Shown here: piece by piece, positions 5,786 to 30,440 of the stretch
Layout of the letters: each line of letters begins with the position of its first letter
Position numbering within the stretch: the first letter of the stretch is position 1
NCBI GenBank assembly: GCA_031424235.1
Contig: JANPHB010000209.1
Location: forward strand, 33,608 to 97,607
Length of the DNA: 64,000 nucleotides
Direction of reading: 5' to 3'
Source of the DNA: Pirellula sp.
Lineage (GTDB): Bacteria; Planctomycetota; Planctomycetia; Pirellulales; Pirellulaceae
Program-made: the position numbers and the translations under genes
Notes under the pieces: model-generated
Databases searched by the model: none
Seen by the model: the letters and a program-made list of their open reading frames with translations, nothing else
Told to the model about the DNA's origin: nothing

Positions 5786-5939
5786 CGCATGGAATCGGCT
5801 GCGACGCGCACCTCTTTAAAGTCTGTTTTCCCGATTTCGAGTGGACAGCTCAACACGACTGAAGGTTCAGAACCTATAATCGAGGCCGATAGCTGCACTT
5901 GAGTCAAGATTGCGACCAGCCCGAACGTTAAGCAATACC

Positions 5940-8285
5940 ATGAAAACAACCAATCGCCTAAATGTTTGTTGCTCTCTTTTAGCCGCGTTTGTTTGCAGCC
6001 TTCTATGCGGCGATGTTCGAGCTCAACATGTGGACGTTGGCCAATTCAAGAATGAGCACCTCATCACCAACAGTATCAATGGCGACACGGGTGATGTTTC
6101 CATTTACGTTTCTTTTCCGAATTGGTTTGGTGAACCGGGATATTGCCCAATTCGAGTTCGGGTCGTGCCTCGAAAGGGGCTTCTGTTCAAACAGAGTGGT
6201 ATGCTCAAAGTGACCATAGGCCAGAACTACTATTCCAGCTTTGGCAATAAAGAAGTTGTGGTCGAGATACCCATCGAGAAAGGGACGGGGGTAGCAACTG
6301 GCGAAGCGCTTGGAAACTTCCTCATTGAGTCGGCAGCCTCTCGCGGCTATCAGTTTGGAATCTCAGCCAAGCTGAACGATCGAAAATTGTCTGGCCAGTA
6401 CTCCTACATTTACAACAGTCGGGGAATGGGTGTCAATGCTTGCAAAAGTCTCGTCTTGATCTCGGATGAAACGTCGAAGGATGACGTTCGGCGTACAGAA
6501 GCGATTGCAGAAATGGGTAGAACAGGGAACTGGTTTTCTCAAGAGCAGTTTGTATCTCAGTCCTCACAATCAAGCTCCTATTGCAATGTGCGAAACATGC
6601 CATCGAACTGGCTTTGCCTGAGCACTTTGGAGCAGATTTCGGTTTCATTGGAGGATCTTGAACGCATGGATGCCAAGGGACGTGAGTGCCTCAGCAGCTA
6701 CGTTCTTGCAGGGGGATTCTTGGCTATTAACAAGGTTCGTTCGCCGAAAACTATCGCGAATTTGTTGTCGATCGATTTAACGAGGAAGCACGGTGTATCA
6801 AAGCGAAACAAGAGCAGAACTAACGGTCAAGCAAACGTGCTGCAGCTAACAGACTTTCAATCGCCAAGCTTAGATCCTTTTGAGAATACCATTTGGGACA
6901 GGCACCAGATGGCGACGGGCCGAGCTGTTTTGAAAGGAGAGACTATACCTCCCTCCATTGGATATGTACCGCCCGTTTCATTCTCAGGTTTCTATGAAGC
7001 GACGGATTGGTTTTCCGAAAAGCTGGCCGAAGTTGGAACTAGCTTTCTGGATTCTAAGCTTGCATCCCCGATTGCTTTTGCGAGCGAGATTTACGATGCA
7101 GTGACGTTTGCTGAGGATGCTCCACAGGAAACAACTATTGTCGCACATGGCTTTGGAACTGTCTGTCTGGAAAGCCGTCGAAGAGCTGATTACGCCAATA
7201 TCCTGGATGAAACCTTTGGCAAAAATCGCTCCAGTTCGAATGCTGCAATTCCAGTAACCGCTGCGTCAGGAAACCGGACCGTTCGATTATCGAGCGGGGT
7301 CGGGGACGACTTTTGGACTTGGCTCATTCCCTCGGTGGGGCGTACGCCAGCCATTGCTTTCTTGACATTTGTCGTTTTGTTTGTGGGTGGAGCCGTCCCT
7401 GGAATCATGGTCTGGAGCAACCGACATAAACGAAGGGTTTGGTTAGTCGTACTCATCCCCATTACCGCCACCATTTGCACCTTTTTTCTGTTCAGCTACG
7501 GGTTGCTCAAGGATGGGTTGGGGGCAGTTTCACGGATTCGATCACTTGCATTCGTGGACCAAAATGGGGATGGACTTGTATGGTCACGTCAGACTTACTT
7601 TGCCGCGACGGTCTCGAATGATGGGATTTCCCTTGACCAGGAAACACACTTCAGTCCGATTATGACGAGTTCGTTTACCTCACTACCGACGAGCGAACAT
7701 GTGGAGTCAGATGGACGGCAAAAGTATCGTGGTTTTCTCCCGCCTCGTCTGCAAACCCAATTCTCAATCGCCCACCCTGTGAGAAAACTGCCGATTTTGA
7801 AACGCGGTCCAGAGCTGGATACACTCTTCAGCGGTCAAGCGATTCGAAATGCCTCCGCTTTCAAGTGGGACAAAGCGATCTTCGTTGGTGAAAACGACTT
7901 GTACTACTTGGCCCTGGATGTAAAGCCTGGAGAGAGGGCTGAGCTTGCGGTAACATCACGAGCAGACGCGATATCTGAGCTACATAAGTCGTACAAGTCT
8001 CAGCCGCTCGTCCCACCAGCCGACTCGCCGTCGGTCGATCAAACTTCATTGGGGCAGGTCTTCACTAATTATTTTGGGTTCCGTTACAATCCGGGAAGCA
8101 ATATTATTAGTCAAATTACCGAAGAGAGTGTTTGGCAAAGCCAACTTGGAAAAGCAACTTCCGACAAAACGGTGTTGCTACCTGGTACATACGTCATCTT
8201 TGCGCACGATGCCCCCTACGTTGAACGTTGCCTGCCGAATGTGCGCGACCAAGAAGGACTGCATACGATTGTCGGCCGTTGGTAA
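5940..8285 (+). CDS. Large exported/membrane hypothetical protein with a class I glutamine amidotransferase-like (non-catalytic) module
   Basis: Signal peptide from Met at 5940; 'MPSNWLCLSTLEQI...LSSYVLAGGFL' module; two TM helices at ~aa 470-525; TATAAT at ~5875. Confidence 0.7.
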   Translation: MKTTNRLNVCCSLLAAFVCSLLCGDVRAQHVDVGQFKNEHLITNSINGDTGDVSIYVSFPNWFGEPGYCPIRVRVVPRKGLLFKQSGMLKVTIGQNYYSSFGNKEVVVEIPIEKGTGVATGEALGNFLIESAASRGYQFGISAKLNDRKLSGQYSYIYNSRGMGVNACKSLVLISDETSKDDVRRTEAIAEMGRTGNWFSQEQFVSQSSQSSSYCNVRNMPSNWLCLSTLEQISVSLEDLERMDAKGRECLSSYVLAGGFLAINKVRSPKTIANLLSIDLTRKHGVSKRNKSRTNGQANVLQLTDFQSPSLDPFENTIWDRHQMATGRAVLKGETIPPSIGYVPPVSFSGFYEATDWFSEKLAEVGTSFLDSKLASPIAFASEIYDAVTFAEDAPQETTIVAHGFGTVCLESRRRADYANILDETFGKNRSSSNAAIPVTAASGNRTVRLSSGVGDDFWTWLIPSVGRTPAIAFLTFVVLFVGGAVPGIMVWSNRHKRRVWLVVLIPITATICTFFLFSYGLLKDGLGAVSRIRSLAFVDQNGDGLVWSRQTYFAATVSNDGISLDQETHFSPIMTSSFTSLPTSEHVESDGRQKYRGFLPPRLQTQFSIAHPVRKLPILKRGPELDTLFSGQAIRNASAFKWDKAIFVGENDLYYLALDVKPGERAELAVTSRADAISELHKSYKSQPLVPPADSPSVDQTSLGQVFTNYFGFRYNPGSNIISQITEESVWQSQLGKATSDKTVLLPGTYVIFAHDAPYVERCLPNVRDQEGLHTIVGRW

Positions 8286-8288
8286 GAT

Positions 8289-8479
8289 TAGCACGACGCG
8301 CAAGTTTTGAAGTTGCACTGAATTGAGAAATGTAGCTGAATTCGTGAGAATTCAGACGCTTTGCAATCAAGACGCGGCCAGAATTCTCACGAATTCTACT
8401 ACAAAAACACAAGTGTGCAACTTCAAAACGCGCAAGCTAGTGATTCCACCATGAATTTCACTAGTTTGCGCGTCGTGCT
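8289..8479. mobile_element. Composite: MITE-like unit (8305-8428) nested in a TAGCACGACGCGCAAG palindromic repeat
   Basis: Perfect 14-bp TIR TTTTGAAGTTGCAC/GTGCAACTTCAAAA; CGCGCAAG direct repeats at 8297-8304 and 8429-8436; internal GTAG REP doublet at 8332-8402. Confidence 0.75.
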
Positions 8480-8505
8480 CAGGTAATTCGGAACTCGCCG
8501 CTCGC

Positions 8506-9507
8506 CTAAGAGGTGACTTCAGTCTCAGCCATATCGCGAGCATGATACGAGCTTCGAACAAATGGACCCGATGCAACTTTCTTGAAGCCCATCGATCTCG
8601 CAATCGCTCCTAGTTCTTCGAACTCGTCAGGTGGCACGTATCGCACGACTGGCAGATACTTGGGACCAGGCTGAAGATATTGTCCGAGGGTCAAGAAATC
8701 GCAATGGTAAGTTCGAAGGTCCGCCAAACAGTCGAGCAACTCGTCGCGAGTTTCACCGAGCCCCAACATGAGTCCGCTTTTTGTCTTAATCGCATTGTTG
8801 CTATTCTTCACATGCTTTAGCAGATCCAAAGTCCATTGGTACTCGCTCTTAGGCCCTCTGACTTTACGGTAAAGTCTGGGGACGGTTTCCATGTTGTGAT
8901 TGAATACTTCCGGCGCCGATTCAATGACGCGGTCCAGGCCATGCTTGTGCCGAATAAAATCGGGCGTTAGCACTTCGACTGAGGCCCCCGTTTTGTTGCG
9001 AACAGCGATGACACATTGATAGAAGTGGTCACCGCCGCCATCCGGTAAATCATCGCGGGTTACGGAAGTAATGACTACGTGCTTCAAGCCCAATCGCAAC
9101 GCTGCTTCGGCAACGCGCTCAGGTTCGTCCCCCTCGAGCGCTTCGGGCTTGCCTCGCGAAACCGCGCAAAAACCACAAGGACGCGTGCAAACATTTCCGA
9201 GAATCATGAAAGTCGCGGTGTTTTGCGAATAGCACTCCATTCGATTGGGGCATTTTGCATTCTCGCAAACGGTCTCCAATCGCAATTCGTTAAGCAATCC
9301 CGAAGTGAAATGGTTGGCGTTCCCTTTCGGCACTTCTCGGCGCAGCCAGGGAGGCAACCGCCGGCTTGGCTCAAAAACTGCCGCAACGGAACCGCACCCA
9401 GCCGCATCTTGCCCCATGGAATCTTGCCCGGCAGAATCGTTCACCGAGGGAGCTTGGCCTGGGAAAGTGTCCGCTGGCGAAAGGACTTTCAAAATGGGGA
9501 GTTGCAT
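8506..9507 (-). CDS. lipA: Lipoyl synthase
   Basis: CX4CX5C (CENAKCPNRMEC), radical SAM CX3CX2C (CTRPCGFC), 'GQYLQP' and 'VRSSYHA'. Start at Met 9507 preferred over the track's 9720. Confidence 0.96.
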   Translation of the reverse strand: MQLPILKVLSPADTFPGQAPSVNDSAGQDSMGQDAAGCGSVAAVFEPSRRLPPWLRREVPKGNANHFTSGLLNELRLETVCENAKCPNRMECYSQNTATFMILGNVCTRPCGFCAVSRGKPEALEGDEPERVAEAALRLGLKHVVITSVTRDDLPDGGGDHFYQCVIAVRNKTGASVEVLTPDFIRHKHGLDRVIESAPEVFNHNMETVPRLYRKVRGPKSEYQWTLDLLKHVKNSNNAIKTKSGLMLGLGETRDELLDCLADLRTYHCDFLTLGQYLQPGPKYLPVVRYVPPDEFEELGAIARSMGFKKVASGPFVRSSYHARDMAETEVTS

Positions 9508-9798
9508 GAGGGGGAAAGCTGCTTGGACAGGGTTCAAAAACGCAAGGAAGCGAAACGGTACGACGCCGTCGTAGTGGACTTGCGACGACGTTGACCGAAT
9601 AATTGTGGTCGAACACTTCGATTCGGACCAGAGACTGTATGCGGATGCAGCCATTTTATCAACAAAAAGGTTAGGACCTCGCAAAACAGATCCCCGAAAA
9701 TCCTCCCAAACATCTGGCATTCACCACATGGAATGACGTACATTAGGTGGACTTGCGCCGTCGCGTAGGTCTTTAGAGAAAGTTCCAAGGTTGGTTAG

Positions 9799-13292: not shown

Positions 13293-13940
13293 GTAGCAGG
13301 CACATTCCATGTGCCATCCGCCCATGAGGGCCGAAGGCTCGACACATCCTCTGCCGGTGCCGTAAGCACCGGACTTGCTATTCCCAAGGATTTCAAGGCC
13401 CGAAGAGGCTGTGGAAAAATGTAGGACGCCCTTTTTAGGGCGTCGAAATTGGCCGTTTTTTGCAGTAACGACGGCCTGAAAAGGCCGTCCTACGAATAAA
13501 TTCACAGTCTCGAAGGGCCCACACACTCGATCATGTGTCGCCCCTTCCGGCAACGCTTTGAAGTATTTTCGAGAATTGGGTAGCAGGTTTCGTGAGTGAT
13601 GCAATCGAATCGTCATTGAATGGTTCTTGAACTCAGATTTCTCACGAAATCTGCTACAAAAGATTGCAAAAATTGCTTCACAGCGTTGCCCCTCCGGGCT
13701 CGTCTCCCGATTGGTCTTCGCACCGTGGCTCATCAGCCTCATCTTTACCCACATCTTTCAACATGAAACTCCAATTCCCCGGGGTTTTCGTACTCGTACT
13801 CGTACTCGATCGGATGGACAATCGAGTACGAGTACCATTTCATTGAGTACGAGTACGAGTACGAAATCTTTCCAAAAATTTGGGAAAAGATGAGGCTTAT
13901 CAGCCACGGCTAGGGATATGTCGGCCTTTCAGGCCTAATT
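13293..13940. mobile_element. Multi-layer composite repeat region: REP scaffold with at least three inserted TIR-bounded units
   Basis: Units at 13406-13510 (CGAAG duplicated), 13551-13688 (9-bp near-duplication) and ~13723-13909 (enclosing a (GTACTC)n palindrome); GTAG REPs at 13293, 13421-13493 and 13580-13657. Confidence 0.75.
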
Positions 13941-28515: not shown

Positions 28516-29706
28516 ATGAAAGAATATGTACAATACTGTCCAATTTCCATTGGTCCCTCAAAGAGCCTGGAGTCTTTTGTGCTAAGTCATTGCCGCCCTT
28601 TTTTCCTTTATGGATTTTGCCTGCTCGTCGTTGACGCAATGCCTAGTCTCCTCATTGCACAGGAAAACGTTCCATCCCTCGGCACTCGCTTGAGCGAAAA
28701 GCAATCTGCGGACTTAGCTCAATTGGCAATCGCCGGACTGCAGCGGGAGTTCCCGAACAAACCCGCGAATGTGATCACTGGCCCGCCCACCATCCTCGGT
28801 CCCAAGCAGATGCATCCTGCCTTTTATGGTTGTTACGATTGGCATAGCAGTGTCCACGGCCACTGGATGCTGGTGCGACTCCTAAAAAAATCGCCACAAC
28901 ATCCGCTTGCCGAAGTTTCGCGTTTGAAGCTCGCGGAGAACTTGACGGGGCCAAATATCGACGCCGAGGCGGCATACTTTGACGAGAAAGAAAACAAGTC
29001 CTTTGAACGCATGTACGGTTGGGCGTGGTTGTTGCGATTGGTGGATGAGTTGCATACCTGGGACGATCCACAAGGCAAACAATGGCGTTCGACCTTGATC
29101 CCGCTCGAACGCAAGATCGTTGAGCTGACCAAAAACTATCTGCCACGTTTAAAGCAACCGATTCGAACTGGCGTTCACCCCGACACCGCATTTGCACTTG
29201 GCCAGATTCTCGACTATGCAAGAACAGTCGGAGACAAAGAGCTTGAGGCACTCGTCGCCTCGCGAGCCCGCGAATACTATGCGAACGATAGAAAGTACAA
29301 TTCGGACTACGAGCCTTCCGGCGAAGATTTCTTTTCGCAGAGTCTCAACGAAGCAGACTTGATGCGCCGAATCCTTGGCCCCGATGCATTCTCGAAGTGG
29401 CTCAGCGAGTTTCTTCCTGACGTCGGCACAGCCAGTGATTCCAAACTAATGCAGCCCGTCGCAGTGAGCGATGTCACCGATCCGAAACTGGTACATCTAG
29501 CTGGCCTCGACCTCTCGCGGGCTTGGTGCATGCAAGGTATCGTTCAAGGACTGCCAAAAGGAGACGTTAGAATAGCATCGCTAACGAACGCGGCCAAAGA
29601 GCATGCGAAAGTAGGGTTGAGCTATGTCTTCAGCGGGCAATACGAAGGAGAGCATTGGCTCGGCACGTTTGCTGTCTATTCATTGACGAACGTTTCAGGC
29701 CAGTAG
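28516..29706 (+). CDS. DUF2891 family protein (start uncertain, may be later)
   Basis: 'HPAFYGCYDWHSSVHGHW', 'FERMYGWAWLL', 'HLAGLDLSRAW', 'YEGEHWLGTFA'. Confidence 0.92.
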   Translation: MKEYVQYCPISIGPSKSLESFVLSHCRPFFLYGFCLLVVDAMPSLLIAQENVPSLGTRLSEKQSADLAQLAIAGLQREFPNKPANVITGPPTILGPKQMHPAFYGCYDWHSSVHGHWMLVRLLKKSPQHPLAEVSRLKLAENLTGPNIDAEAAYFDEKENKSFERMYGWAWLLRLVDELHTWDDPQGKQWRSTLIPLERKIVELTKNYLPRLKQPIRTGVHPDTAFALGQILDYARTVGDKELEALVASRAREYYANDRKYNSDYEPSGEDFFSQSLNEADLMRRILGPDAFSKWLSEFLPDVGTASDSKLMQPVAVSDVTDPKLVHLAGLDLSRAWCMQGIVQGLPKGDVRIASLTNAAKEHAKVGLSYVFSGQYEGEHWLGTFAVYSLTNVSGQ

Positions 29707-30440
29707 CACGAAGCGCAAGCTAGTGAAACGATCAGGCGAACAAGTGAAACCATCGGGAAACTCACTAGCTTACCTAGTCATGCCGAAGAAGCGTTGGGAC
29801 CTACAATCGATAAAAATTCCATAGTCGTGAAAGAACTCTCTTTTCACGTTGTTTTCTTGGTTGGGGACAGTTCAGAGCAAGGTAACTTTCGGCAAGAGGA
29901 GGCAGTCTCACTTTTTTGAGGAAGTGTTTTTAGCCGTGAAACGGCGACAGTTCGTAGCTGCGGGGCTCGCCCCGCAGACACCTTTAGTAATCGAATGCAG
30001 GAGCCGTGAAATGGCGCCACCACACAGTGGCGCCGTTTCACGGCTCTCGTATTCAACGTGCCTAGAAACCCTGGGGCAAGCCCCACGGCTACGAAGTGCC
30101 GCCGCTATCGCGGCTAAGAAACAAAGCGGTCGTCGCTTACCAGAAAATCGCAACAGTCGTGTCAGCCAGTTGTTGGGAATATCCGATGGCATGGGTTGGG
30201 ATGATTTGGAAGTGCGCGAGCTCAATACTGGCTCAGCTTACTTTGGACGGTAAAAAACGGCACTTCTCGGCGATCGCCACCATTTTTCCTATGCCTATGC
30301 GTGGAATCCCGCAGGCTTGTCCTGCGGATCGTTAGGTTTTTAGCTACGCACTGAACGCTCCGTCATTCGCTCGTGCCCCCGGATTTGCCGAAGGCAAAAC
30401 CGGGGACACGAGCGACAGTCGCGAAGAGAGGGTTTAGTAG
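29704..30440. repeat. Cluster of palindromic repeats between convergent genes
   Basis: TAGCACGAAGCGCAAGCTAGTG at 29704; GTAG doublet 29954-30092 enclosing a gagccgtgaaatggcgcca hairpin; gctcgtgccccgg...ccggggacacgagc at ~30369-30416. Confidence 0.7.

What the first reader, a model, noticed from the sequence alone, without database searches (positions are those of the whole stretch)
8289..8479. 124-bp MITE-like unit carrying a REP doublet, inserted into another REP with an 8-bp duplication
Seen: perfect TIR TTTTGAAGTTGCAC (8305-18) / GTGCAACTTCAAAA (8415-28), flanked by CGCGCAAG direct repeats (alternatively a 15-bp TIR with a 6-bp TSD). The interior is a GTAG REP doublet (GTAGCTGAATTCGTGAGAATTC ... 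GAATTCTCACGAATTCTACTAC). Removing the unit restores TAGCACGACGCGCAAGCTAGTG, which occurs uninterrupted at 29704. Inference: DDE-type transposition has mobilised a REP doublet and targeted another REP.
Basis: partly seen in the sequence, partly recalled or inferred. Interest (0 to 1): 0.65.

Follow-up and report, generated by a model that had tools for sequence, protein, structure and literature searches.

The report
Miniature transposon inserted in REP hairpin
A 124-base non-coding mobile element has jumped into one arm of a repeated hairpin between two genes of a Pirellulaceae bacterium; it is one of about 150 orphan copies left by a transposon family that inserts only into this hairpin's core sequence, which is a clear case of a known behaviour rather than a new kind of system.

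Summary
Window 8305-8428 is a 124-bp element with perfect 14-bp terminal inverted repeats (TIRs) and an 8-bp target-site duplication (TSD), CGCGCAAG. It sits in the left arm of a REP hairpin (8290-8479) between convergent genes.

- The genome holds 31 full and 9 partial copies of this unit. At least four other MITE families share the TIR and the target.
- The unit lies in both orientations relative to the REP arm (13:12).
- The uninterrupted arm occurs 227 times in this genome.
- At the orthologous locus, one close relative has the empty site. Another has a different MITE at the same base with the same duplication.
- A 1.5-kb autonomous IS has the same ends, an 8-bp TSD and the same REP-core target. 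It encodes a 453-479-aa DDE transposase that is IS701-like but below the family cut-off. It occurs in the same genus and across Planctomycetota.
- This genome has no copy of that IS, so its MITEs are orphans.
- Both the outer hairpin and the interior doublet belong to REP families that flank their own RAYT-like genes.

One detail is wrong: the copy at 29704 differs by one base.

REP-targeting ISs are known (Tobes and Pareja 2006). This is a new member of that kind, of moderate interest.

The parts
8305..8428 (+). 124-bp MITE (family F124), non-coding. Layout: TIR, 12 nt, REP-C arm, 27-nt spacer, REP-C arm, 11 nt, TIR.
   Evidence: There are 31 full-length and 9 partial copies in the genome, and this copy differs from the consensus at 2 of 124 positions.
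8305..8318 (+). Left terminal inverted repeat, TTTTGAAGTTGCAC.
   Evidence: Identical to the ends of the autonomous 1.5-kb IS in relatives.
8415..8428 (-). Right terminal inverted repeat (GTGCAACTTCAAAA on the + strand).
8297..8304 (+). Target-site duplication, copy 1 (CGCGCAAG).
   Evidence: D3. Present once in the orthologous empty site of G349.
8429..8436 (+). Target-site duplication, copy 2 (CGCGCAAG).
8331..8353 (+). Interior REP-C unit 1: a GTAG head plus the small hairpin CTGAATTC-GTGA-GAATTCAG.
   Evidence: I1, I9. The REP-C family has 204 arms at up to 2 mismatches. 97 core matches lie outside F124. Arrays flank a RAYT-like gene at C179.
8381..8403 (-). Interior REP-C unit 2, inverted. 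With unit 1 it forms a REPIN-like doublet.
   Evidence: I1.
8290..8304 (+). REP-A left arm, outer part (AGCACGACGCGCAAG), cut off from the rest of the arm by the insertion.
   Evidence: (I4).
8437..8442 (+). REP-A left arm, inner part (CTAGTG), followed by the 16-nt loop at 8443-8458.
   Evidence: the spacing between arms is 16 nt in 84 of 102 hairpins.
8459..8479 (-). REP-A right arm (CACTAGTTTGCGCGTCGTGCT), intact.
   Evidence: (I2, I4).
5910..8285 (+). Upstream gene, 791 aa, no Pfam family. Its stop codon lies 4 nt before the REP.
   Evidence: Orthologues at 86-87% identity in G349 and G342.
8506..9720 (-). Downstream convergent gene, 404 aa, lipoyl-synthase-like radical SAM protein.
   Evidence: PF04055 9e-21; LIAS_N 8e-7.
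29704..29725 (+). Uninterrupted REP-A arm in the same window, 21/22 identical to the restored site. Its partner arm is degenerate.

Best explanation
[quoted passage not shown] It was inserted by cut-and-join DDE transposition into the left arm of a REP hairpin lying between two convergent genes.

Shown:
- The element has the same 14-bp ends as a roughly 1.5-kb IS of Planctomycetota; the match runs to about 19 bp in sister MITE families.
- That IS encodes one 453-479-aa DDE transposase of the IS4/IS701 superfamily.
- Both the IS and the MITEs are flanked by an 8-bp duplication of the motif [A/C]GCG[C/T]NAG.
- The motif is almost always embedded in ...CGA|NGCGYNAG|C..., the conserved core of REP families that flank RAYT-like genes.
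- The orthologous site is empty in one relative and occupied by a different MITE in another.

Inferred:
- The transposase binds the TIRs in trans.
- It recognises the REP core as sequence, and possibly its structure.
- It makes cuts staggered by 8 bp, and repair of the gaps produces the duplication.
- REP hairpins serve as harmless landing sites in intergenic DNA.

The interior of the MITE is a doublet of a different, GTAG-type REP that travels as cargo. The window's genome assembly has no cognate transposase, so its roughly 150 copies are now orphans. They were either spread by an IS since lost or can be mobilised only by an incoming copy.
For: Anatomy.

Copies: 69 exact TIRs and two main size classes, 124 and about 260 bp. 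F124 has 31 full copies and F260 has 41, and further families F183/F191/F240/F421 share the TIR.

Duplication: 43 of 58 complete elements have a direct 8-bp TSD with at most 2 mismatches, 25 of them perfect. The reconstructed target consensus is TAGCACGA-CGCGCAAG-CTAGTGAAT.

Independence of insertions: F124 lies in both orientations relative to the REP arm, 13 against 12. The uninterrupted REP-A arm occurs 227 times exactly and 333 times at up to 2 mismatches, against about 80-90 filled junctions.

Orthologous locus: G349 has the empty arm with a single CGCGCAAG. G342 has an F260-type MITE at the same base with the same duplication.

Autonomous partner:
- G108, L021 821-2327: 1507 bp, 469-aa ORF, PF01609 E=7e-17, TSD CTCACGCT.
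- Same genus, G317, L162 1434-2938: 25-bp perfect TIR, TSD CGCGTCAG inside ACCCGA..CGAGG.
- Further copies in Pirellulaceae, Mariniblastus, Pirellula, Schlesneria, Isosphaeraceae and Zavarzinella, with the same ends and the same type of target.
- D, D, E and the Y(2)R(3)E(6)K motif are invariant in 7 intact transposases.

REP status of the target and the cargo.

Precedent for REP-targeting ISs, including the PF01609-type ISRm22 and hybrid direct repeats produced by recombination: PMC1525189.
Against: - No transposition was observed; everything rests on comparative sequence.
- No cognate transposase is in this genome: tblastn best E=0.45, and searches found none. Trans-mobilisation here cannot be current unless the assembly lost the IS. 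Related MAG assemblies do lose IS interiors (G025, G014).
- About 317 CGCGCAAG octamers outside REP-A are apparently unused. Recognition therefore extends beyond the octamer, but what is recognised was not determined.
- A few copies (C96:7999, C239:84116, C211:43549) have inverted rather than direct flanks. I attribute these to recombination between two insertions, without proof.
- The transposase falls below the curated cut-offs of every NCBIfam IS model.
Confidence: 0.88

Rival explanations
1. Fixed composite repeat. REP-A and the 124-bp unit would be one larger repeat spread as a block, for example by the RAYT-like enzyme or by recombination, rather than by separate insertion events.
For: Nearly all copies share the same 14-20 nt on each side.
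Against: - The shared flank is exactly the REP arm; sequence beyond it differs at every locus.
- The element lies in both orientations within the arm, 13:12.
- At least five unrelated interiors share the same TIR and the same site.
- 227 arms are uninterrupted.
- The orthologous locus is empty in G349 and carries a different MITE in G342.
Confidence: 0.03
2. Single-strand HUH (RAYT or IS200/IS605-type) mobilisation. The unit would be moved by one of the genome's Y1 transposases acting on its hairpins, not by a DDE enzyme.
For: The genome encodes at least 13 Y1_Tnp-like genes. The unit carries a REP-C doublet whose family flanks a RAYT-like gene. The whole region is a strong hairpin, -95.7 kcal/mol, z = -9.5.
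Against: By established knowledge, HUH Y1 transposition makes no target duplication and uses subterminal hairpins, not terminal inverted repeats. Here there is an 8-bp TSD, confirmed by an empty site. The TIRs are those of a DDE IS. The REP-C doublet with this spacer is almost confined to F124, 33 of 36 occurrences. It therefore spreads as cargo, not by itself.
Confidence: 0.04
3. A functional structured element rather than a parasite. The nested hairpin would be selected as a bidirectional terminator or mRNA stabiliser between the convergent genes, and its mobile-element look would be incidental.
For: It lies between convergent genes and folds very stably. REPs are known to act in termination and mRNA stability (background in PMC3733652 and PMC2817692).
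Against: The orthologous intergenic region is built differently in each of three close genomes, so this particular structure is not conserved. No Rfam family matched; there were only sub-threshold miRNA hairpin hits. A host effect could be secondary and does not explain the origin.
Confidence: 0.05

Closest known systems
REP-targeting insertion sequences: IS1397/ISKpn1 and ISPsy8 (IS3), IS621/ISPpu9/ISPpu10/ISPa11 (IS110), ISRm22 (IS4-type, Transposase_11) - Tobes and Pareja 2006, PMC1525189
   Same: All or nearly all copies sit at one fixed position of a REP sequence, with short direct repeats for the DDE members. Occasional hybrid flanks are explained by recombination. Like this IS, ISRm22 has a PF01609-type transposase.
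   Different: - Here the insertion is inside the stem, 6 bp from the loop side, not at the symmetry axis.
- The TSD is 8 bp, against 2-6 bp in the published cases.
- The host is Planctomycetota.
- The site is exploited mainly by MITE derivatives, in a genome that lacks the transposase.
- The ends and the target core are conserved across a phylum.
IS701 family (ISfinder; NCBIfam NF033540)
   Same: Single ORF. The DDE_Tnp_1 fold matches almost the whole profile (27-361 of 363). D, D, E and Y(2)R(3)E(6)K are conserved. The element is about 1.5 kb long and has marked target specificity.
   Different: The score of 93.5 bits is below the curated cut-off of 150. Identity to annotated IS701 transposases is only 21-25%. 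The TSD is 8 bp, whereas IS701 members are listed with 4-5 bp; that figure is from my recollection of ISfinder and was not checked here.
Bacterial MITEs sharing ends with a parent IS (Nezha, NEMIS/Correia, RUP, MITEAba12) and nested MITEs
   Same: Small size, TIRs, a TSD, no coding capacity, many copies, several interiors under one set of ends, and insertion into other repeats.
   Different: The cargo is a REP doublet of a RAYT-associated family, and the target is another RAYT-associated REP.
REPINs and RAYTs (Bertels and Rainey 2011, PMC3116915; Nunvar et al. 2010, PMC2817692; Di Nocera et al. 2013, PMC3733652)
   Same: Both the outer hairpin (REP-A) and the interior doublet (REP-C) behave as REP/REPIN families. 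They are high-copy extragenic palindromes with arrays flanking a single HUH tyrosine-transposase-like gene.
   Different: The 124-bp unit itself is not a REPIN. It has TIRs and a TSD and depends on a DDE enzyme.

Membership tests
MITE (non-autonomous derivative of a DDE IS) | Terminal inverted repeats | tested here: met
   14/14 perfect, 8305-8318 against 8415-8428.
MITE (non-autonomous derivative of a DDE IS) | Target-site duplication, verified against an empty site | tested here: met
   CGCGCAAG is present twice here and once in the orthologous G349 site. 43 of 58 elements have a direct 8-bp TSD.
MITE (non-autonomous derivative of a DDE IS) | Small, non-coding, multi-copy | tested here: met
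   124 bp. 31 full and 9 partial copies, at a mean 95% identity to the window copy over the full-length ones.
MITE (non-autonomous derivative of a DDE IS) | Ends shared with an autonomous IS encoding a transposase | tested here: met
   1.5-kb IS copies in G108, G317, G287, G292, G284 and others have the same TIR and TSD length. None is in the window's own genome.
IS701 family (for the autonomous partner) | Transposase reaches the curated family model cut-off | tested here: not met
   NF033540 is the best hit, E=1.6e-26 and 93.5 bits against a cut-off of 150. The IS4 models score lower.
IS701 family (for the autonomous partner) | DDE catalytic triad with the Y(2)R(3)E(6)K signature of the IS4/IS701 group | tested here: met
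   PF01609 E=7e-17. LIDAT, GDTAY and YSxRWQIELFFKELK are invariant in 7 intact proteins.
IS701 family (for the autonomous partner) | 4-5-bp target duplication (ISfinder description, recalled) | tested here: not met
   The TSD is 8 bp in every full-length copy examined.
REP / REPIN with cognate RAYT (outer hairpin REP-A) | High-copy extragenic palindrome | tested here: met
   333 arms at up to 2 mismatches and 102 complete hairpins, mostly with a 16-nt spacer.
REP / REPIN with cognate RAYT (outer hairpin REP-A) | Arrays flank a single HUH tyrosine-transposase (RAYT) gene | tested here: inconclusive
   C184:73743-74204 is flanked by 7 and 4 REP-A arms. The protein has an HUH motif (NHVHVV), but Y1_Tnp scores only 22.3 bits against a cut-off of 23, and NF047646 gives E=8e-4.
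REP / REPIN with cognate RAYT (interior REP-C) | GTAG head plus palindrome, present independently of the MITE, flanking a RAYT | tested here: met
   GTAG-CTGAATTC-GTGA-GAATTCAG. 97 core matches lie outside F124. 11 arms surround C179:2141-2791, whose product hits REP_Tyr_transpos NF047646 at E=2e-9, below the cut-off.
REP-targeting IS behaviour | Insertions confined to one position of a REP | tested here: met
   Nearly all MITE and IS copies lie in REP-A, REP-B or equivalent arms at ...CGA|NGCGYNAG|C....

The most novel reading that the evidence does not exclude
The IS family and the REP core it targets are locked together across Planctomycetota. The 14-bp ends are the same, or differ by one or two bases, in elements whose transposases are only 42-84% identical. 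The target motif ...CGA|NGCGYNAG|C... recurs in REP families that otherwise differ, each with its own RAYT-like gene (REP-A, REP-B, the G025 and G184 types, and possibly REP-D). This would be a long-lived three-way association in which a DDE transposon parasitises the recognition core of RAYT-maintained REPs. F124, a MITE carrying a REPIN of yet another RAYT, might then be mobilisable by two unrelated enzyme systems.
Probability: 0.2. Interest if true: 0.6.

Novelty: new member of a known kind. Interest (0 to 1): 0.35.

Why it matters
It adds a well-documented planctomycete case to the short list of transposons that use REP hairpins as safe landing sites. The case is complete: an empty site, two alternative occupants of the same site, and the autonomous parent are all in hand.

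It shows that a large share of the small-repeat load of a 10-Mb Pirellulaceae genome comes from about 150 orphan MITEs of one IS family. This matters for annotation and for assembly, because many contigs break at these elements.

The strict 8-bp target inside a defined 20-nt context, together with near-invariant ends, makes the transposase a candidate for studying sequence-specific DDE integration. It does not reveal a new kind of mechanism.

Tried and rejected
- Full-length IS in the window's genome. I searched for TIR pairs 500-6000 bp apart at up to 3 mismatches with a TSD, and found only chance pairs. I inspected unpaired TIRs and those at contig ends; all are MITE interiors or noise. A self-BLAST for long repeats gave no candidate carrying these ends. 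tblastn with the G108 transposase found nothing.
- The G025:C14 IS copy is a frameshifted pseudogene, and its fragments gave no Pfam hit. I stitched it only to find intact relatives.
- Rfam gave only sub-threshold miRNA hairpin hits.
- A literature search for IS701 TSD lengths yielded no usable statement. That comparison rests on recollection.
- Rejected: a 9-bp TSD with asymmetric ends. It is possible because the target has A before and the element ends in A, but it is less economical than symmetric 14-bp TIRs with 8 bp.
- Rejected: an IS110 or bridge-RNA type of insertion, because these elements have TIRs, a TSD and a DDE_Tnp_1 partner.

Full report
**Observation.**
- TTTTGAAGTTGCAC lies at 8305-8318, and its exact reverse complement at 8415-8428.
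- The pair is bracketed by CGCGCAAG at 8297-8304 and 8429-8436.
- Inside is a 23-nt inverted repeat, 8331-8353 against 8381-8403.
- Outside, AGCACGACGCGCAA (8290-8303) pairs perfectly with 8466-8479.
- Removing 8305-8436 restores TAGCACGACGCGCAAGCTAGTG.

The copy cited at 29704 differs at one base: it has A for C at 29712. The element lies between the stop codon of a 791-aa gene of unknown family (ending at 8285) and the stop codon of a convergent lipoyl-synthase-like gene (ending at 8506). As RNA, the whole intergenic stretch folds into three nested hairpins at -95.7 kcal/mol, z = -9.5.

**Genome-wide picture.**
The named relatives of the transposase fit a planctomycete.

The 14-mer occurs 69 times exactly. 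Inverted pairs fall into two main size classes, 124 bp and about 260 bp, with rarer classes of 183-191, 240 and 421 bp. The interiors of these classes are unrelated to one another. BLAST finds 31 full and 9 partial copies of the 124-bp family (F124), and 41 full and 13 partial copies of F260. The window copy is 2 nt from the F124 consensus. In all, about 150 elements carry these ends.

**Are these separate insertions or one fixed composite?**
Almost every copy has the same flanks: GCACGACGCGCAAG|element|CGCGCAAGCTAGTG, or its reverse complement. A minority lie in a second context, ACCCGA[MGCGTRAG]CGAGG.
1. The shared flank is exactly the REP arm, and sequence beyond it differs at each locus.
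2. F124 lies in both orientations relative to the arm, 13 against 12.
3. Unrelated interiors use the same site.
4. The uninterrupted arm occurs 227 times exactly and 333 times at up to 2 mismatches.
5. The orthologous locus was found in two congeners whose upstream protein is 86-87% identical. G349 has TTAGCACGACGCGCAAGCTAGTG with a single CGCGCAAG, which is an empty site. G342 has an F260-type MITE with a further element nested in it, at the very same base and with CGCGCAAG on both sides.

So one site has three states. Of 58 complete elements, 43 have a direct 8-bp duplication with at most 2 mismatches, 25 of them perfect. Most of the rest are shifted by a 1-nt indel at the junction.

Three to five copies have inverted rather than direct flanks (C96:7999, C239:84116, C211:43549). 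This is what recombination between insertions in the two arms of one hairpin, or in two REPs, would leave. The same explanation was given for the hybrid repeats of ISRm22 (PMC1525189). I did not test it.

**The autonomous partner.**
No long element with these ends exists in the window's genome. The TIR is patchily present in congeners and in other families of the order.

In G025, five contigs start 106-135 bp inside a shared sequence that ends in the TIR. This is the signature of a collapsed multi-copy IS. One degenerate full copy lies on C14. A read-through of that pseudogene led to intact copies.

The copy at G108, L021 821-2327, is 1507 bp with both TIRs. It holds a 469-aa ORF and is flanked by CTCACGCT on both sides, inside CCTCG...TCGGGT. 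That context is the reverse complement of the ACCCGA[AGCGTGAG]CGAGG context used in the window's genome.

Further full copies have the same ends and an 8-bp duplication of the same motif:
- same genus: G317, G024, G350;
- same family: G287, G292, G284, G184;
- other orders: Schlesneria, Isosphaeraceae, Zavarzinella.

All of these copies are 1.50-1.52 kb except a 1347-bp pseudogene copy in G194. One exception, G091, sits in a different octamer.

The protein carries DDE_Tnp_1 (PF01609, E=7e-17). Its best NCBIfam model is IS701, at 93.5 bits against a curated cut-off of 150. It is 21-25% identical to annotated IS701 transposases. The motifs LIDAT, GDTAY and YSxRWQIELFFKELK, which give D, D, E and Y(2)R(3)E(6)K, are invariant in seven intact proteins.

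The window's genome has no homologue: tblastn gives a best E of 0.45, and searches find none. There are not even the contig-end fragments seen in G014 and G020. Its MITEs are therefore orphans.

**What the target and the cargo are.**
REP-A is a roughly 62-bp palindrome with 21-25-nt arms and, in 84 of 102 hairpins, a 16-nt spacer. Arrays of REP-A arms flank a 150-aa HUH protein with the motif NHVHVV at C184:73743-74204. Arrays of the second target, REP-B, flank a paralogue at C205. A third paralogue at C298 is flanked by a further family, REP-D. These proteins hit Y1_Tnp and RAYT models only weakly. They are best described as RAYT-like.

The interior of F124 is two inverted copies of GTAG-CTGAATTC-GTGA-GAATTCAG. 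This REP-C family has 204 arms, about 100 of them outside F124. Eleven arms surround a 216-aa protein at C179:2141-2791 with the motifs PDHMHLL and YIARNP. It matches the REP-associated tyrosine transposase model NF047646 at E=2e-9. The doublet with this particular 25-nt spacer is almost confined to F124, 33 of 36 occurrences, so it spreads as MITE cargo.

**Mechanism.**
Shown: the ends, the duplication, the empty site, the parent IS with a DDE transposase, and the fixed target context.

Inferred from what is established for IS4-type DDE enzymes:
- the transposase binds the TIRs in trans;
- it cuts the target with an 8-bp stagger, and repair of the gaps yields the duplication.

About 317 CGCGCAAG octamers outside REP-A appear unused, so recognition must extend beyond the octamer. 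What exactly is read, the flanking CGA and C or the hairpin itself, was not determined.

**Comparison and novelty.**
REP-targeting ISs are established for the IS3, IS110, IS4, IS256 and IS5 families (PMC1525189). REPs are known in Planctomycetes (PMC3733652). An earlier report of this scan on 13293-13940 reached the same general conclusion for other MITE families. This finding differs from the published cases in several ways:
- the insertion is in the stem;
- the duplication is 8 bp;
- the transposase is a divergent IS701-like enzyme;
- the ends and the target core are conserved across the phylum;
- MITEs dominate in a genome without the enzyme;
- the cargo is a REPIN.

I rate it a new member of a known kind, with interest 0.35.

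Noticed in passing
G000 C184:73380-74460; C205:5650-6560; C298:4600-5420 (outside the window): Three paralogous 150-180-aa HUH (NH[VMC]H[VV]V) proteins are each flanked on both sides by arrays of their own repeat: REP-A, REP-B and REP-D respectively. This looks like a planctomycete RAYT-like subfamily that barely registers with Pfam Y1_Tnp (19-22 bits).
   Followed up: partly
G000 C179:1900-3150 (outside the window): A 216-aa RAYT-like gene (PDHMHLL, YIARNP) is surrounded by 11 GTAG-type REP-C arms arranged as doublets with 25-37-nt spacers. This is the same family as the interior of the 124-bp MITE.
   Followed up: partly
L055 (G342:C55) about 2340-2480; G000 C112:46074-46442: A third small element with ends GAGGTTGTGAA...TTCA[CT]AGCCTC is nested at the same point inside F260-type MITEs in two genomes. 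It is another site-specific MITE, one that targets a MITE.
   Followed up: no
window 8490-8509: GGAACTCGCCGCTCGCCTAA is the reverse complement of TTAGGCGAGCGGCGAGTTCC. It is a module found next to many REP-A hairpins genome-wide (consensus row), and here it overlaps the TAG stop codon of the lipoyl-synthase-like gene. The repeat may supply or abut gene ends.
   Followed up: no
G000 C96:7999-8122; C239:84116-84239; C211:43549-43808: These MITE copies have flanks that are inverted rather than direct repeats. In C211 a REP-A arm lies on one side and a REP-B arm on the other. This suggests MITE-mediated recombination or deletion between insertions.
   Followed up: partly
G025 contigs C15, C31, C35, C45, C60, C59, C99, C100 (L001-L005, L009-L018): Eight contig ends stop 106-135 bp inside the IS, and the intact interior is absent from the assembly. 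Multi-copy ISs evidently drop out of these MAGs, so absence calls need care.
   Followed up: yes
window 29704-29790: This REP-A arm has one mismatch. Its partner arm is degenerate (CACTAGCTTACCTAGTCATGC) and the spacer is about 40 nt, so it is a decaying hairpin.
   Followed up: no
G000, many contig ends (e.g. C291:1, C302:1, C92, C104, C413, C417): Contigs begin or end exactly at, or within, these MITEs. The repeat families are a major cause of the assembly's fragmentation into 418 contigs.
   Followed up: no
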